Below are positions 16,398-25,721 of a stretch of 32,000 bases of DNA, in pieces. Source of the DNA: Candidatus Peribacter riflensis (GTDB taxonomy: Bacteria; Patescibacteriota; Gracilibacteria; Peribacterales; Peribacteraceae); the NCBI GenBank assembly GCA_001430755.1, contig CP013062.1, positions 60,001 to 92,000 of the forward strand. Reading direction: 5' to 3'. Both the position numbers and the translations under genes were made by a program. How positions within the stretch are numbered: position 1 is the stretch's first letter; each line of letters begins with the position of its first letter. The notes below the pieces were generated by a model. That model worked only from the letters and a program-made list of their open reading frames with translations, was not told where the DNA came from and ran no database searches.

Positions 16398-16518
16398 CAG
16401 ACGTTCTGCACCTGCATGGAACGCCCTGACCGAACCTGTGTGGCGCAGGGCCGGACAAAACATGAAGGTGTCCTAAGCGCTTTACACAGCCAAAAATTCG
16501 GGTAGAGTGCAAGTTTGC

Positions 16519-18780
16519 ATGACTGACCTCCCCGCCAGCATCGAGGCGTATCTTACGGAAGCAGGATTCTCTGCGACCGAGCTCCTGGTGCTCAAAAAGC
16601 TCCTCGAGGGCGAGGCGCTGACACTCAGGGAACTGGCCGCCAAAACGGGCAAATCGACGGGGGTTCTGGATCTCGCCGTGAAGAAGCTCCTCAGCCGCCG
16701 CATCATCAGCCGCGAGATGGTGAATGACACGCCCAAGATGCTCCTCAAGTCTCTGGATGCGGTCATGAAGTGGGTGAAGGACGATACCGAGGAGAAGCTC
16801 AAAGCCATGAAGAGCCGTGCCCTGGACTTCGAATCGTTCATTGCGTCGCTCAAGCGCGAGAGCAAGCGGCCCGAGATGGAGTACTTCGAGGGCGAGGAGG
16901 GCATCAAGAAGGCCTACATGAAGCTCCTGGAGGTTTCTGTGAAGGAGTTTCTGCACTACCGCCCCGTCACGATGAAGGAGGAGGAAGACCCGTTGGCGGC
17001 CTTCCGCGTGCAGTACTTCCGCGAGCGGCACAAGCGGAGCATTTTCTCGCGCGTCCTGGCGCCCTCCACCTCTCTCGGGCGGCGCTTTCAGTCGCGCGAC
17101 GTGTTCGAGTATCGCGAGACACAGCTCATCAAAGACGAGGAGTTCCCCATCACGTTCGAAAAGATCATCGTCGGCGAGACGGTGGCGTGCTTCAACCATG
17201 CGGAGCAGCGCGCGTGCTTTCTCAAGTATCCCGAATTGGCGCACACCGAACGCACCATGTTCGAGCTGCTGTGGCGCCGTGCCAAAGAGCCGCCCACGCA
17301 GCCGCAGACCGTGGCTCTCACCCTCCCGCAATCTTCCCAGCCGGTGATCTCTTTGAGCACGCGGTCACTCTCGAGCCTGCGTGAGTTCTTCTTAAGCCGC
17401 AATAGCGTGGCGCTCTTCTTTGGGGGTGCCGTGCTGGCTGCGGGCATTACCTATGGGCTGTGGTGGCATACGTATAATTTGAATCGCGAGCGGGTGCGGG
17501 AACGGGCCATGGCGATTGCCGCCACTGCCGCCATGGAGTTTGATGCCAGAGACATCGAACAGCTTCGTACGAAGGAGGATGTGAAGAAGCCGGAGTTTAT
17601 GAAGCTCGTGACGCACCTGCGCGAGATCAAGACACGCAATGAGAACATCCGATTTGTCTACATCGATCGTCCCATTGAGGCGAAGGACGCATCATGGGCA
17701 GTGGTTGCAGATGCCGATTACGGCACGCCGGATGAGGATCTGGACGGGGACGGTATTATCGAGGATTTTGAGCAGCTCACTATGCCCGGGCAGATCTATC
17801 CACATGTGGATCCGCTCTTTCAGGAGCGACTCCATAGACCGGCCGCAGACTTTCTCAGTGACGAATGGGGTGCATACTGCGATGCATCAGCTCCTATTTT
17901 CGATGCGGAAGGGAAGGCCATAGCTGTTCTTTTCGTCGATATCGATCTGCAGCAGGTGCGGGATCTCACTTCACAGTCATTCAAGGTAGCCTATGTCTTC
18001 CTTGGGCTTTTCCTCTTTTTCGTCTTCATCCGTCTCGCGGCCTTCAATCGGCCGCTTTTCTTTGAGTTGCTCAAGGTGTTGCGATCTAGGGGAGTGCTGA
18101 TGATTTTGGGGGTGTGTGCGCTGATTTCGCTTGGGGTGACGTGGGGGATGTATCGGTATAGCTACAATCTCAATCTCCAGCGTGTACGTGAGCAGGTAAC
18201 GGCAATCGCTGCAACCGCTGCACCAGAGTTTGATGTGGAAGACTTGGATCAGCTTCATACGTGGCATGATGTTGAAAAAACCGTTTACAAAAAAGTGGTG
18301 GCACAGCTGCAGGATATTCGGAAGAGAAATGCGACGGTGAGATATGTCTACATATTGCGGGCAACGGATGATCCGTATTTCTACGAGTTCGTGGCAGATG
18401 CAGATTCACTCAATATTCGATCATTTTCAGATTTTTCCGAAGATGGACTGAGGAATGACATCAGCCCACCTGGATATTCATATTATGATTATGAGGGAGT
18501 CAAATCCTCACTTATGAAGGCTATGCATGAACCATTTGCAGATCATCAGATGGTTTACGATTTATGGGGAGAATGGATTTCGGGGCATGCGCCTATTAAA
18601 GACAAGAATGGCAAAATGAATGCAATTATTGGAGTTGATGTAGATGCGAGTAAGGTTGACGCCCTATCAAGGCAGGCATTCTCACCAATTTTTCTGTTTG
18701 CCAGCCTGTTTTCTCTTTTGGTTTTTGTACGATTTATCACATTCGTGAGTCCGCGATTTATAAAACATCTTCGGAGATAA
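16519..18780 (+). CDS. TrmB-family HTH regulator fused to two tandem TM-bounded extracytoplasmic (Cache/PDC-like) sensor domains
   Basis: N-terminus LTEAGFSATELLVLKKLLEGEALTLRELAAKTGKSTGVLDLAVKKLLSRRIISRE (wHTH), followed by a TrmB-type effector-like region. Four hydrophobic segments (~17401-17470, ~17986-18045, ~18091-18150, ~18687-18745) bracket two homologous ~170-aa domains that share FD..D(I/L)(E/D)QL, (I/V)R(F/Y)VYI, (F/V)VADAD, WG, API.D..GK and VD(I/V)D. ATG 16519 preferred over GTG 16507. Confidence 0.8.
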   Translation: MTDLPASIEAYLTEAGFSATELLVLKKLLEGEALTLRELAAKTGKSTGVLDLAVKKLLSRRIISREMVNDTPKMLLKSLDAVMKWVKDDTEEKLKAMKSRALDFESFIASLKRESKRPEMEYFEGEEGIKKAYMKLLEVSVKEFLHYRPVTMKEEEDPLAAFRVQYFRERHKRSIFSRVLAPSTSLGRRFQSRDVFEYRETQLIKDEEFPITFEKIIVGETVACFNHAEQRACFLKYPELAHTERTMFELLWRRAKEPPTQPQTVALTLPQSSQPVISLSTRSLSSLREFFLSRNSVALFFGGAVLAAGITYGLWWHTYNLNRERVRERAMAIAATAAMEFDARDIEQLRTKEDVKKPEFMKLVTHLREIKTRNENIRFVYIDRPIEAKDASWAVVADADYGTPDEDLDGDGIIEDFEQLTMPGQIYPHVDPLFQERLHRPAADFLSDEWGAYCDASAPIFDAEGKAIAVLFVDIDLQQVRDLTSQSFKVAYVFLGLFLFFVFIRLAAFNRPLFFELLKVLRSRGVLMILGVCALISLGVTWGMYRYSYNLNLQRVREQVTAIAATAAPEFDVEDLDQLHTWHDVEKTVYKKVVAQLQDIRKRNATVRYVYILRATDDPYFYEFVADADSLNIRSFSDFSEDGLRNDISPPGYSYYDYEGVKSSLMKAMHEPFADHQMVYDLWGEWISGHAPIKDKNGKMNAIIGVDVDASKVDALSRQAFSPIFLFASLFSLLVFVRFITFVSPRFIKHLRR

Positions 18781-18848
18781 TTAAACTCAAGGATTTAGCT
18801 TTCAATATTGGCTTTATTGATTACATTGTTCTGAACATTAAGTGCAAA

Positions 18849-19817
18849 TTACTTTCCAAGAACGTAAGAGAAAATTAATGGAGCAACAATTGTTGCATCG
18901 GAATTGATCACAAAACTTGGAGTGTTCTTGGTGACTTTGTGCCAAGTGATCTTCTCTTTCGGAGTACAGCCAGAATAGGAACCGTAAGATGTAGTAGAGT
19001 CAGTAATCTGAGCATAATATGCCCAATGGGGACATTCCTTGCCCAAATCTAGAAGAATACAAGGCACACAACACAGGGCAAAATCTCCGGCAGTACCACC
19101 ACCGATTTGGAAAAAACCAACAGATGATTTTTTGCTTATTTCCTGATACCACTGCATCAAGTGTGCGAACTGTTCTGTGCCGTGTCTGATTGCAGCATGG
19201 CTTCGGATAGTTCCATCCATTACACGAGCAGCAAAAATGTTGCCCAAAGTTGAATCTTCCCAACCAGGGGAGTAGATCGGAATTTTCTTTTCCCATGCCG
19301 CAGCCATCCAAGAATGCGCAAAAGGTACCTGATTAATGTTATTTAGAAATCCCTCATCAAACAGCCGGAAGAGATACTCGTACGGGAAGTGGTGTTCTTC
19401 TTTTTTTGCAGCTTCTGCCCAGTATTCAATAAGTTTGTTTTCTACTTTTCGCATGACATTTTCTGGAATACATACATCAGTGACGCGATTCATGCCACGG
19501 TCGCGCAAGGCCTCCTCATCATCGGGCGTGAGATTGTCATAATCTGGAACCATTTCATACTCGTTATGAGCGATAAGGTTGAAGATGTCCTCTTCCAGAT
19601 TTGCAGCTGAGCAGGAAATAGCATGAATCTTGTCTTCCCGGATCATTTCTGCAAGTGAAATGCCGATTTCGGCCGTACTCATTGCTCCTGCCATAGCAAG
19701 GAACATTTTCCCTCCTTTCTTTTCATGGTCTACCCATGCCCGCGCAGCCCGCAGCGTTGTAAACGCGTTGAAGTGCTTGAAGTTTTCTTCCATAAATGAG
19801 GAGATTGGCTTCGGCAT
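18849..19817 (-). CDS. deoxyhypusine synthase family protein (homospermidine-synthase-like)
   Basis: 322 aa. RDRGMNRVTDVCIPENVMRKVENKLIEYW matches the DHS INRIGN..VPNENY region. FFQIGGGTAGDF matches the GGG loop. The C-terminal YSGCTPKEKITWHKV keeps the catalytic-Lys context (SWGK in eukaryotic DHS). Confidence 0.85.
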   Translation of the reverse strand: MPKPISSFMEENFKHFNAFTTLRAARAWVDHEKKGGKMFLAMAGAMSTAEIGISLAEMIREDKIHAISCSAANLEEDIFNLIAHNEYEMVPDYDNLTPDDEEALRDRGMNRVTDVCIPENVMRKVENKLIEYWAEAAKKEEHHFPYEYLFRLFDEGFLNNINQVPFAHSWMAAAWEKKIPIYSPGWEDSTLGNIFAARVMDGTIRSHAAIRHGTEQFAHLMQWYQEISKKSSVGFFQIGGGTAGDFALCCVPCILLDLGKECPHWAYYAQITDSTTSYGSYSGCTPKEKITWHKVTKNTPSFVINSDATIVAPLIFSYVLGK

Positions 19818-19885
19818 GATTTATTGGGAACTATTGCAAATGATAGAACTCGAATACTAGTTTGCAACTTCCAAATTAGTATTAA

Positions 19886-20347
19886 TCACAGGATCTGTTG
19901 CATTTGTTCTACTTTCTCTCCAGATCCTCGGATATCCAGTACTGATCGTTTGTCACCCGAAGAATTATGGGAATTGATTGCACGATTTATAAAAGTGGCC
20001 TGCCACAAACCTAAAGGTAGGTGCTTTGTTAACGTGATCAGCGCCACCTTCCAGTCAAATCCTTGGCAGCTATATATATCCATGTGAATATGTGGTTGCC
20101 CATTTGGTTCATCGAAATAATGACCAGAGATGTGGCTTGTTGTAATTGGTTGTAGGAATGACCAACCAGGTGCGAGAAGATCGGTTGCAGGATAGATTTC
20201 CAATGGACCGAGCTTCTTCATTTTTAATGTACTCAGCAAATCTTCAATGAGTGCGTGAATCATTTTCTCATTTTCTGAGTTATCGAATGGCTTTAGCAAA
20301 TGTGCATCCAAGATAAAATGGTGATGAAGCAGAGCAATACTAGACAT
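19886..20347 (-). CDS. S-adenosylmethionine-decarboxylase-fold (SpeH-like, pyruvoyl) protein, divergent paralogue 1
   Basis: GWSFLQPITTSHISGHYFDE...HIHMDIYSCQGFD aligns by eye with the prokaryotic AdoMetDC core (..VVISESHLTIHTWPE...IDLFTCG). ATG 20347 has ggagaa 11 nt upstream. The track start 20383 is a TTG. Confidence 0.72.
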   Translation of the reverse strand: MSSIALLHHHFILDAHLLKPFDNSENEKMIHALIEDLLSTLKMKKLGPLEIYPATDLLAPGWSFLQPITTSHISGHYFDEPNGQPHIHMDIYSCQGFDWKVALITLTKHLPLGLWQATFINRAINSHNSSGDKRSVLDIRGSGEKVEQMQQIL

Positions 20348-20443
20348 AAGGTGAAATTCTCCATATATCGGATAAGAAGTCAATTATATTGTGACGACGA
20401 ACTGGTACTGGCTTTACGAATTAACTCGGTTTACATTGCTATT

Positions 20444-20869
20444 ATGAAATATATCTGGGCGTCAATATTACTATTGTTACTGGTTGGAGGGGGGTTTGCT
20501 TTTTCAAGTTATTTAAGACTTGCCCATGAAGAGCAATTAGTTGCCACAGCTCAGTTAAGGAACAGAGACCGGAAGGAACATTTACGAACATTAGTATCTG
20601 CTATTAAGCAGTATATGAGTGATCACAACAAACAAGCGCCAGGAATTTTGGATAGTACTCAAAAAAATATTTGTAGAACTGACGTTAAGGTTGATTGCAC
20701 AGATTTAGTAGACCTTTCCAAGCTTACAGAAGAATATCTTGTTACTCTTCCAATTGATCCATTGGTTTCATCGGGCGCAAGTACAGGTTATGCAATTCAA
20801 ATAGATGGTAATATTATCACCGTCAAAGCCATATATGCGGAGGACGAAGATGTATCAATTTCTTTCTAA
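20444..20869 (+). CDS. membrane-anchored pilin/pseudopilin-like protein without a canonical prepilin cleavage motif
   Basis: 141 aa from ATG 20444. Anchor MKYIWASILLLLLVGGGFAFSSYL, then LRNRDRKEHLRTLVSAIKQYMSDHNKQAPG, which resembles the R(D/N)..R..DL..(I/L)..A(I/L)..Y..D helix of type IV pilin-like proteins. There is no G/FTLIE processing site. Confidence 0.5.
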   Translation: MKYIWASILLLLLVGGGFAFSSYLRLAHEEQLVATAQLRNRDRKEHLRTLVSAIKQYMSDHNKQAPGILDSTQKNICRTDVKVDCTDLVDLSKLTEEYLVTLPIDPLVSSGASTGYAIQIDGNIITVKAIYAEDEDVSISF

Positions 20870-20881
20870 TTATGGTATAAT

Positions 20882-22330
20882 TTGTTTGTGAAACTTATAC
20901 AAACAACAGCTATCTGGTTTCTTGATAAAGGCAAGAGTTATTTGGTGCTAATTCTCTGTGGGCTCATTGCTGGAGCAGCAACGATTTCTCTATTTGGATA
21001 TACAAGAGATCTGCTGCTTACGCGCCTAGAGGACAAACTTATTGCGATCAGTTCGACTGCTTCACTTTTATTTGATGAGAAAGAAATCGAGCAGTTGCAT
21101 GAATTGGGTGGAGAGAGTGTCAATACTGATTTGTATCGGAAGACAGTATTAACATTGCGGAAAATTAAACGAAGAAATTCGGACATCAGATATGTCTACA
21201 TTTTTCACAGGACAGATGATCCGAGCCTACTCAAATTTGTGGCTGATGCAGATATGATCGCTCTGAAGACAGAATTGAATTTCACCGGTGAATCACAAGA
21301 TGAGAGTGATTTTCCCGGTACCGATTACGATGTGACCGAATCTCCAGGATTGCTTAGTGGTAATGCGTTCATCGAACCTACGATTGATGATCTTTATCAG
21401 GATGACTGGGGTTACGTGTTTTCAAGTTATGCACCTATCCGAGATAACCAAGGGGTGCCTTCCGATTCAATTATTGGTATCGATGTTGATGTAACACAAT
21501 ATCTCAATAATGTCTTTGCCACGCTCATACCTTTTACTGCGTTTATTGTGGCGTTATTCATTCTACTTGGTCTTCTAACTTTCTTCCTCCTTAGGATATG
21601 GGGATCGCGTGTGGACCTCCTCAAAGACCTCGACCGCCAAAAAGACGAACTCATCAGTATCGTCAGTCACCAACTGGCAACACCGGTGACCTCGGTGAAG
21701 TGGTACCTCGAGATGCTGCTGGATGGAGATTCCGGTGAACTGAACGAGGAACAGAAGAAACAGCTCATGACCATGCAGGGGGTGACAGAGGACCTTGTGG
21801 ACCTGGTGGGTATGATTCTGGATGTTTCGCGCATTCAGCTGGGCCGCATGAAGGTGGATCGCGGGCCGTTGGATCTGGGCACCTTCTTTACCGAAGTGCT
21901 GGCCGTGATCGAGCCCAAGGCGACCATGAAGAAGCAGCAATTCATCAAGAATATCCCGGGCAAGCTGCCCGTGGCGTCGCTGGATAAGCGTCTGATGCGC
22001 ATGACGCTCGAGAACCTGCTCAGTAATGCCGTCAAATACACGCCGGAGGGCGGAAAGGTGGAGCTGAATGTCACGCTCACAGATCACACGCTCCGCTACG
22101 AGGTGAAGGATACGGGTTGCGGCATCCCCAAGGAGGATCAAGAGAAGATCTTCGGCAAGCTCTTCAGGGCCACCAACGTGCGCAATACGGAGGGCAATGG
22201 TCTCGGCCTCTTCGCCGCCAAGGGCGCCGCCGAGGCGCAGGGTGGCAAAGTGTGGTTCGAGAGCGAATCGGGTAAAGGCACCACGTTCACCGTGGAAGTG
22301 CCGCTTGAGGAGGTGAAGGAGCAGGAGTAA
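20882..22330 (+). CDS. sensor histidine kinase with a periplasmic domain homologous to the TrmB-fusion sensor domains
   Basis: Two TM segments flank a domain containing FDEKEIEQLH, IRYVYIF, FVADAD, DDWGY, APIRDNQG and GIDVDV. H-box ISIVSHQLATPVTSV. HATPase motifs NLLSNAVKYTP and GNGLGLFAAKGAAEAQGGKVWFESESGKGTTFTVEVP. Start is TTG 20882 or GTG 20888. TGgTATAAT at 20873-20881 ends immediately upstream of TTG 20882, so a leaderless GTG-20888 start is possible. Confidence 0.9.
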   Translation: MFVKLIQTTAIWFLDKGKSYLVLILCGLIAGAATISLFGYTRDLLLTRLEDKLIAISSTASLLFDEKEIEQLHELGGESVNTDLYRKTVLTLRKIKRRNSDIRYVYIFHRTDDPSLLKFVADADMIALKTELNFTGESQDESDFPGTDYDVTESPGLLSGNAFIEPTIDDLYQDDWGYVFSSYAPIRDNQGVPSDSIIGIDVDVTQYLNNVFATLIPFTAFIVALFILLGLLTFFLLRIWGSRVDLLKDLDRQKDELISIVSHQLATPVTSVKWYLEMLLDGDSGELNEEQKKQLMTMQGVTEDLVDLVGMILDVSRIQLGRMKVDRGPLDLGTFFTEVLAVIEPKATMKKQQFIKNIPGKLPVASLDKRLMRMTLENLLSNAVKYTPEGGKVELNVTLTDHTLRYEVKDTGCGIPKEDQEKIFGKLFRATNVRNTEGNGLGLFAAKGAAEAQGGKVWFESESGKGTTFTVEVPLEEVKEQE

Positions 22331-25289: not shown

Positions 25290-25721
25290 ATGCCACAGGT
25301 CTTTGTTCCAACCATGAAGGAATACAATTCCAGCGGTGCCTGGGGGATGCTGACTTCCATCGATGTTCACGGGTGCAATCCCGCAACCGTCCGCAGCGCA
25401 GAGGCCATCAAACTGTTTACGCAGCAGATGTGCGAGCTGATCGATATGAAGAGGTACGGCGAGACGCAGGTCGTCAACTTTGGCGATGATCCGCGGGTAC
25501 ACGGGTATTCCATGGTGCAGTTGATCGAAACATCGCTGGTGTCGGGCCACTTTGCCGAAGAGACGAATTCCGTCTTCCTCGATGTGTTCAGCTGCAAGTA
25601 CTACGATGCTGCCAAGGCCGCCGCGTTCGCTGCAAAGTTTTTCGGCGGTAAGGACTACAGCGCGACCACCCTGCTCCGCGGGAAATTCGAAAAGAGCTCC
25701 CTTCCCGATAAAAAGCAGTAG
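25290..25721 (+). CDS. S-adenosylmethionine-decarboxylase-fold (SpeH-like, pyruvoyl) protein, divergent paralogue 2
   Basis: AWGMLTSIDVHGCNP (N-terminal strand), HGYSMVQLIETSLVSGHFAEE (processing-site region) and VFLDVFSCKYYD (conserved Cys region). 143 aa, typical of the family. Confidence 0.72.
   Translation: MPQVFVPTMKEYNSSGAWGMLTSIDVHGCNPATVRSAEAIKLFTQQMCELIDMKRYGETQVVNFGDDPRVHGYSMVQLIETSLVSGHFAEETNSVFLDVFSCKYYDAAKAAAFAAKFFGGKDYSATTLLRGKFEKSSLPDKKQ

What the first reader, a model, noticed from the sequence alone, without database searches (positions are those of the whole stretch)
18849..20347. Deoxyhypusine-synthase-like gene paired with an AdoMetDC-fold gene that has T-S instead of E-S at the processing site
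The two genes are adjacent on the minus strand with a 68-nt gap. The DHS-like protein keeps the NAD/spermidine-site landmarks I can recognise, including the C-terminal Lys context. The AdoMetDC-fold protein aligns with the prokaryotic core, but the self-cleavage dipeptide Glu-Ser is Thr-Ser (PITTSHISGHYFDE), and TIHTWPE is replaced by SGHYFDE. Bacterial DHS homologues are known as homospermidine synthases. AdoMetDC-fold enzymes are known to have been recruited as arginine decarboxylases in Crenarchaeota. No spermidine synthase (speE) is present in the window. A putrescine-to-homospermidine route fed by a neofunctionalised decarboxylase is therefore a reasonable but untested alternative to classical spermidine synthesis.
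Basis: partly seen in the sequence, partly recalled or inferred. Interest (0 to 1): 0.6.

Follow-up and report, generated by a model that had tools for sequence, protein, structure and literature searches.

The report
Agmatine-coupling gene pair lacking hydrolase
A tiny groundwater bacterium carries a two-gene version of a recently published polyamine pathway (probably arginine to agmatine, then two agmatines joined), but it lacks the enzyme that normally finishes the product and already has a separate complete route to homospermidine; the 'odd' Thr-Ser cleavage site is a known signature.

Summary
Both genes are real, 68 nt apart, in a Peribacteraceae genome. Thr-Ser is not an anomaly: it occurs in tested AdoMetDC-derived ornithine decarboxylases (SpeDC) and in a tested phage arginine decarboxylase, and all self-processing residues are kept. 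The decarboxylase belongs to a separate clade with no tested member that I could find. Across 75 non-redundant loci it sits beside a DHS-like gene (41), near agmatinase, never near homospermidine synthase (hss), and is once fused to agmatinase. It is most likely an arginine decarboxylase. The genome (one contig, 98% complete) has no agmatinase, agmatine deiminase or speE, so G44G may be the end product; 14 of 25 pair-carrying relatives also lack a hydrolase. This scan noted a hydrolase-less pair before in another genome. Verdict: variant of a known pathway; no activity was measured.

The parts
19886..20347 (-). SpeD-fold pyruvoyl decarboxylase proenzyme (153 aa) of an untested clade; predicted cleavage Thr70-Ser71; keeps Gly61, Ser63, Ser71, His76, Cys94; probable arginine decarboxylase
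   Evidence: Pfam, family conservation in 114 sequences, alignment to tested enzymes, fold, tree, gene context, dN/dS 0.085 (101)
18849..19817 (-). SpeY-type deoxyhypusine synthase homologue (322 aa); K294, E288, W292, D188 kept; N193 and Y281 replace human D243 and D316; probable agmatine-coupling (G44G) synthase
   Evidence: Pfam/NCBIfam, residue mapping, homologues, dN/dS 0.033 (101)
25290..25721 (+). Second SpeD homologue: canonical SpeDC-type ornithine decarboxylase (143 aa), not in the finding; partner of an unlinked hss
   Evidence: 57.6% identical over 125 aa to validated OGJ64158 and in its clade (84, 89); hss match E 1e-94 to 2PH5
18158..21600 (.). Low-GC variable cargo slot holding the pair, with edges inside two paralogous sensor-domain genes (TrmB-sensor gene 16507-18780, histidine kinase 20882-22330)
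   Evidence: GC 41-45% against 58.5% for the genome; similarity to same-genus genomes without the pair stops near 18158 and resumes at 21576-21620 (115)

Best explanation
The pair is a speDA-speY module. Protein 1 self-cleaves at Thr70-Ser71 to form a pyruvoyl group (inferred from conserved residues) and decarboxylates L-arginine to agmatine (inferred from gene context). Protein 2 uses NAD+ and a K294 imine intermediate to join two agmatines into N1,N9-bis(guanidino)homospermidine, G44G (inferred from tested SpeY proteins). The genome has no recognisable enzyme to remove the guanidino groups (shown by searches), so G44G probably accumulates or leaves the cell, while homospermidine is made separately by the canonical SpeDC plus HSS.
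For: Processing residues invariant in 114 homologues and shared with tested enzymes. In 75 dereplicated loci: DHS-like gene within 700 nt in 41, agmatinase in 20, aguA/aguB in 1, hss in 0, speA in 0. Natural fusion of this clade's domain to an agmatinase followed by DS; one open frame joining it to DS; operon with DS-aguB-aguA. In 199 relatives, hand tally: this clade adjacent to DS in 25 of 45 genomes and to hss in 0; canonical SpeDC adjacent to hss in 11 of 16. The tested arginine decarboxylase of HTVC201P also has Gln(-4) and Thr-Ser and is 33% identical over 109 aa, against 27% over 70 aa for the tested ODC. SpeY lacks human D243/D316, as the agmatine-coupling CdmS does. No arginase-family, PAD_porph, CN_hydrolase or ADI gene (22, 23, 26, 119, cross-checked in 101, 123). 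Both genes under purifying selection.
Against: No activity measured. Protein 1 keeps two of the four SpeDC (ornithine) diagnostic residues, and the published rule of thumb says a genome without speB/aguAB points to ODC. The tree does not join this clade to any tested enzyme; deep nodes are unresolved. About 14 relatives have the decarboxylase with no DS gene, and one locus has it beside speE. This SpeY differs from its family at about 11 otherwise conserved positions, so its specificity may have shifted. An unrecognised hydrolase cannot be excluded. Genomes counted are related, not independent.
Confidence: 0.52

Rival explanations
1. Same first two steps, but G44G is finished to homospermidine by a hydrolase of an unrecognised family or by a host cell, or the pair is a remnant of a three-gene cluster.
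For: Outside Peribacteraceae the clade usually has agmatinase right behind DS; 9 of 25 pair genomes have a clear speB or aguA hit; the published model requires a hydrolase.
Against: No candidate by four family searches in a one-contig, 98% complete genome; no recurring unknown gene downstream of the pair; 11 genomes at least 90% complete share the lack; dN/dS 0.03-0.09 argues against decay.
Confidence: 0.15
2. Protein 1 is a second ornithine decarboxylase feeding putrescine to HSS and possibly to a putrescine-using SpeY (closest to the first reader's idea).
For: Gln67 and Thr70 match the SpeDC signature; hss present, no agmatine-using hydrolase; same-genus G165 has hss and this gene but no canonical SpeDC.
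Against: Never adjacent to hss, and hss is no commoner in genomes with it (7/45 vs 27/154); fused to or clustered with agmatinase elsewhere; a canonical SpeDC is already present; no tested SpeY makes appreciable homospermidine without an agmatinase; several relatives have hss with no SpeD homologue, so G165 says little.
Confidence: 0.17
3. The altered SpeY makes a different product, e.g. mono-guanidino homospermidine from agmatine plus the putrescine supplied by SpeDC, or protein 1 is bifunctional or uses lysine.
For: Lineage-specific SpeY changes (R19, E20, I242, I248, F268, A284) kept under selection in the two genomes of this genus that have the pair, both of which also have hss; a phage homologue with both Arg and Orn activity is known.
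Against: Other hydrolase-less genomes checked (G028, G100, G182) have the ordinary SpeY N-terminal and GGG motifs; most changes are conservative; no precedent for a mixed product.
Confidence: 0.11
4. Ordinary AdoMetDC and/or a DHS that modifies EF-P.
For: One Thr-Ser-clade relative (phage phiN3) is a true AdoMetDC; one locus lies beside speE.
Against: No speE in the genome; the Pro diagnostic of true AdoMetDC is Asp79; EF-P has Gln, not Lys, at the tip position; D243/D316 equivalents are lost.
Confidence: 0.05

Closest known systems
speDA-speY(-speB or -aguAB) clusters of the agmatine-dependent (diagmatine/G44G) homospermidine pathway (Li et al. 2023 PMC10407285; Li et al. 2026 PMC13625781), e.g. 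Ca. Marinimicrobia, Capsulimonas corticalis, Gimesia maris
   Same: SpeD-fold decarboxylase directly upstream of a SpeY gene, no speE, no PLP-dependent ADC/ODC in the genome
   Different: No ureohydrolase or iminohydrolase anywhere in the genome; hss and a canonical SpeDC coexist; the decarboxylase is from a Thr-Ser clade not shown to include any tested enzyme
SpeDC pyruvoyl ornithine decarboxylases (Ca. Peribacteria OGJ64158; D. phosphitoxidans SpeD2)
   Same: Gln(-4), Thr-Ser cleavage site, conserved Gly/Ser/His/Cys, same host family
   Different: Only 27% identical over 70 aa; Tyr77 for the diagnostic Phe and His88 at the likely diagnostic Tyr; separate clade; partnered with SpeY rather than hss. 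The gene at 25290-25721 is the true member
Pelagiphage HTVC201P arginine decarboxylase (AXH71538; PMC9992855)
   Same: Gln(-4), Thr-Ser-His-Ile, longer loop before the Cys strand, 33% identity
   Different: Not grouped with it in the tree; phage gene without SpeY; protein 1 has an extra C-terminal hairpin
Thermus thermophilus CdmS / caldomycin synthase (PMC10981699)
   Same: Catalytic Lys and Glu kept; acidic residues equivalent to human D243 and D316 replaced
   Different: Belongs to the ~320-aa subfamily whose named hits are Planctomycetota and Elusimicrobiota; no downstream ureohydrolase; direct comparison with the CdmS sequence not done

Membership tests
Class 1b AdoMetDC fold / pyruvoyl enzymes | Fold plus processing residues (T. 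maritima S63, H68, C83, conserved Gly) | tested here: met
   G61, S71, H76, C94 invariant; Foldseek top hits 2III, 1VR7, 1TLU
Class 1b AdoMetDC fold / pyruvoyl enzymes | Actual self-cleavage to alpha and beta chains | not testable with these tools
   Needs expression and MS
Bona fide AdoMetDC (SpeD) | Conserved Pro after the catalytic His; speE in genome | tested here: not met
   Asp79 in place of Pro71; no speE
SpeDC ornithine decarboxylase | Four diagnostic residues Gln, Thr, Phe, Tyr | tested here: not met
   Gln67 and Thr70 present; Tyr77 and His88 at the other two. Positions 3 and 4 inferred from Fig. S5 text and OGJ64158, as the logo figure is not held
SpeDC ornithine decarboxylase | Falls in the clade of validated ODCs | tested here: inconclusive
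   Outside the OGJ64158 sub-clade, own clade at SH-aLRT 95; deeper nodes open; quick tree only, one validated ODC included
SpeDA arginine decarboxylase | Clustered with speY, no speE, Pro not conserved | tested here: met
SpeDA arginine decarboxylase | speB or aguA/aguB in the same genome | tested here: not met
   Absent here; present with the clade elsewhere
SpeDA arginine decarboxylase | Decarboxylates arginine only | not testable with these tools
   Needs enzyme assay
SpeY / CdmS G44G synthase | DHS homologue with catalytic Lys and Glu; human D243 and D316 replaced | tested here: met
   K294, E288; N193, Y281
SpeY / CdmS G44G synthase | Forms G44G from agmatine | not testable with these tools
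   Needs LC-MS; grouping with the tested SpeY sequences was not possible as they could not be fetched
eIF5A/EF-P-modifying DHS | Target factor with Lys at the loop tip | tested here: not met
   EF-P has Gln where other EF-Ps have the modified Lys (93, 103)

The most novel reading that the evidence does not exclude
A stand-alone, mobile two-gene module in Peribacteraceae uses a further, independently evolved pyruvoyl arginine decarboxylase to make G44G (or a mixed guanidino-polyamine) as a final product, side by side with a SpeDC-HSS homospermidine route, showing that guanidino-polyamines have a role of their own and that the SpeY and HSS routes can coexist.
Probability: 0.35. Interest if true: 0.58.

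Novelty: new variant of a known kind. Interest (0 to 1): 0.36.

Why it matters
The published model treats G44G as an intermediate, says speY moves together with its hydrolase, and calls the SpeY and HSS routes mutually exclusive in substrate. A 1.25-Mb genome that keeps both routes under selection and no hydrolase is a clean test of that model. The clade also shows that the Gln/Thr-Ser signature alone cannot be used to annotate ornithine decarboxylases. This matters to polyamine specialists; it is not a new kind of system.

Tried and rejected
Sequence search of the PDB with protein 1 gave only chance hits. No viral contig encodes this clade by pattern scan. Promoter/terminator scan was at chance level. 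The careful tree did not finish; the quick tree was used. Five look-ups of sister-clade proteins gave short or uninformative contigs. A guessed paper id for AdoMet-binding residues was the wrong paper and a text search found none, so ligand-binding roles in T. maritima are not used. Other agmatine or putrescine sources were not found: PvlArgDC, alanine-racemase-fold decarboxylase, and the weak AAT-fold hit looks like a DegT-type aminotransferase. Pseudogene reading rejected (dN/dS, 101). No complex prediction was run, since no binding claim is made.

Full report
Observation. The two ORFs, their strand, the 68-nt gap and the quoted residues are as described. Protein 1 (153 aa) scores just over the Pfam AdoMet_dc cut-off and protein 2 (322 aa) is a clear DS-family member below all NCBIfam equivalog cut-offs. 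The genome is one contig of 1,248,026 bases, 98% complete, 58.5% GC; named homologues are Peribacteraceae. An earlier scan note calls it Ca. Peribacter riflensis, which I did not verify.

The Thr-Ser site is known. Li et al. 2023 (PMC10407285) describe AdoMetDC homologues turned into ornithine (SpeDC) or arginine (SpeDA) decarboxylases and list Gln, Thr, Phe and Tyr as diagnostic of SpeDC. In their Fig. S5 the SpeDC domains have Thr before the pyruvoyl Ser, and mutating that Ser (S229A) abolishes ODC activity. I recovered the tested Peribacteria ODC OGJ64158 and the tested phage arginine decarboxylase of HTVC201P: both have Gln(-4) and Thr-Ser. So the site neither blocks processing nor fixes the substrate. 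Protein 1 keeps Gly61, Ser63, Ser71, His76 and Cys94 (T. maritima G53, S55, S63, H68, C83), invariant or nearly so in 114 homologues. Its model (pLDDT 93) matches class 1b AdoMetDC. It lacks the Pro that marks true AdoMetDC, and the genome has no speE.

Which substrate. Protein 1 is 27% identical over 70 aa to OGJ64158 and 33% over 109 aa to the HTVC201P enzyme. In a quick tree its relatives form their own group (SH-aLRT 95), apart from true AdoMetDCs, the OGJ64158 group and the HTVC201P group; deeper nodes are unresolved. Sequence does not decide, so context is the main evidence. In 75 loci dereplicated at 90%, a DHS-like gene lies within 700 nt in 41, an agmatinase is in the locus in 20, aguA/aguB in 1, speE in 1, hss and speA in none. 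One member heads a DS-aguB-aguA operon, one is fused to an agmatinase and followed by DS, and one shares an open frame with DS. In 199 genomes of the order (hand tally) the clade is in 45, adjacent to DS in 25 and to hss in none, whereas canonical SpeDC is in 16 and adjacent to hss in 11. hss is no commoner in genomes with the clade (7/45 against 27/154). These genomes are related, so the counts show a pattern and are not independent tests. The pattern is that of SpeDA, so arginine is the most likely substrate (inference).

The DHS homologue. It keeps K294, E288, W292 and D188 (human K329, E323, W327, D238) but has N193 and Y281 for human D243 and D316, the same two positions that differ in the agmatine-coupling CdmS of Thermus (PMC10981699). 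Li et al. 2026 (PMC13625781) found that all SpeY proteins tested make G44G from agmatine and need a hydrolase to give homospermidine. EF-P has Gln at the tip position, so it is a poor target.

A second SpeD homologue lies at 25290-25721, 57.6% identical to OGJ64158 and in its clade, and an hss lies at genome position 1,067,133-1,068,611. This is the published ornithine-putrescine-homospermidine route, independent of the pair.

What remains unusual. The genome has no arginase-family, agmatine deiminase, carbon-nitrogen hydrolase or ADI-family gene (controls rang; cross-checked with fetched queries in 101 and 123), and no other recognisable arginine decarboxylase. Of the 25 genomes with an adjacent pair, 14 have neither an arginase-family nor a PAD_porph hit, 11 of them at least 90% complete, including one other single-contig genome; 9 have a clear hit and 2 a weak one. 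Both genes are under strong purifying selection against a same-genus copy (dN/dS 0.085 and 0.033). So the simplest reading is that G44G is made and not hydrolysed in this cell. Coexistence of SpeY and hss is not unique: the genome of OGJ64158 also has a DS gene about 3 kb from hss. The SpeY of this genus differs from its family at about 11 conserved positions, which leaves room for a shifted product.

Origin. The pair is 41-45% GC and sits in a slot between two sensor-domain genes whose contents differ among genomes of the genus (same pair in G165, other cargo in G162 and G163, none in G167); DNA similarity breaks inside the flanking genes.

Verdict. Shown: genes, residues, fold, gene inventory, context. 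Inferred: cleavage, arginine specificity, G44G formation and its fate. The pathway type and the Thr-Ser site are published; the untested clade, the missing hydrolase and the parallel SpeDC-HSS route make it a modest variant. The scan reported a hydrolase-less pair in another Patescibacteria genome (e1-3793381), an unchecked note that is not independent support.

Noticed in passing
window 25290-25721: The canonical SpeDC is itself an insertion between the ABC-2 operon and an HD-domain gene; absent at this slot in G162, G163, G165, G167 and unlinked to hss, unlike most relatives.
   Followed up: partly
L023:437-1921 (G075): Single open frame joining this decarboxylase clade to SpeY; one MAG contig, not checked on reads.
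   Followed up: partly
L121:5001-6272 (P0155): Natural fusion of the decarboxylase domain (N-terminally short as called) to an agmatinase, followed by a DS gene.
   Followed up: partly
L011, L017, L027, L030, L031, L074, L075 and others: About 14 Peribacteraceae genomes carry the decarboxylase with no DS gene, near EamA transporters, small EamA/SMR-like proteins, methyltransferases and sensor kinases; possibly amine export.
   Followed up: no
L094:991-1956, L095 (G185, G191): Tandem two-domain SpeD proteins with a degenerate N-terminal domain and a SpeDC-like C-terminal domain whose catalytic His looks replaced in L094; the reverse of the published active-N, degraded-C fusions.
   Followed up: no
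L117:1123-1680 (genome ~887 kb): EF-P lacks the Pro-Gly-Lys-Gly tip and has Gln at the modifiable position.
   Followed up: partly
G163, G166, G169 and about ten other genomes: hss present with no SpeD homologue found by either query; putrescine source unknown, perhaps imported.
   Followed up: no
L180:3-1137: One clade member lies divergently beside a spermidine synthase gene, the only such case in 75 loci.
   Followed up: partly
G189:C1:41525-43009: Both genes of the pair are broken together in this genome, consistent with a shared function.
   Followed up: no
window 20447-20869: Very low-GC (37%) gene for a small protein with one N-terminal hydrophobic segment, pilin-like by eye and without a Pfam hit, inside the same cargo slot.
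   Followed up: no
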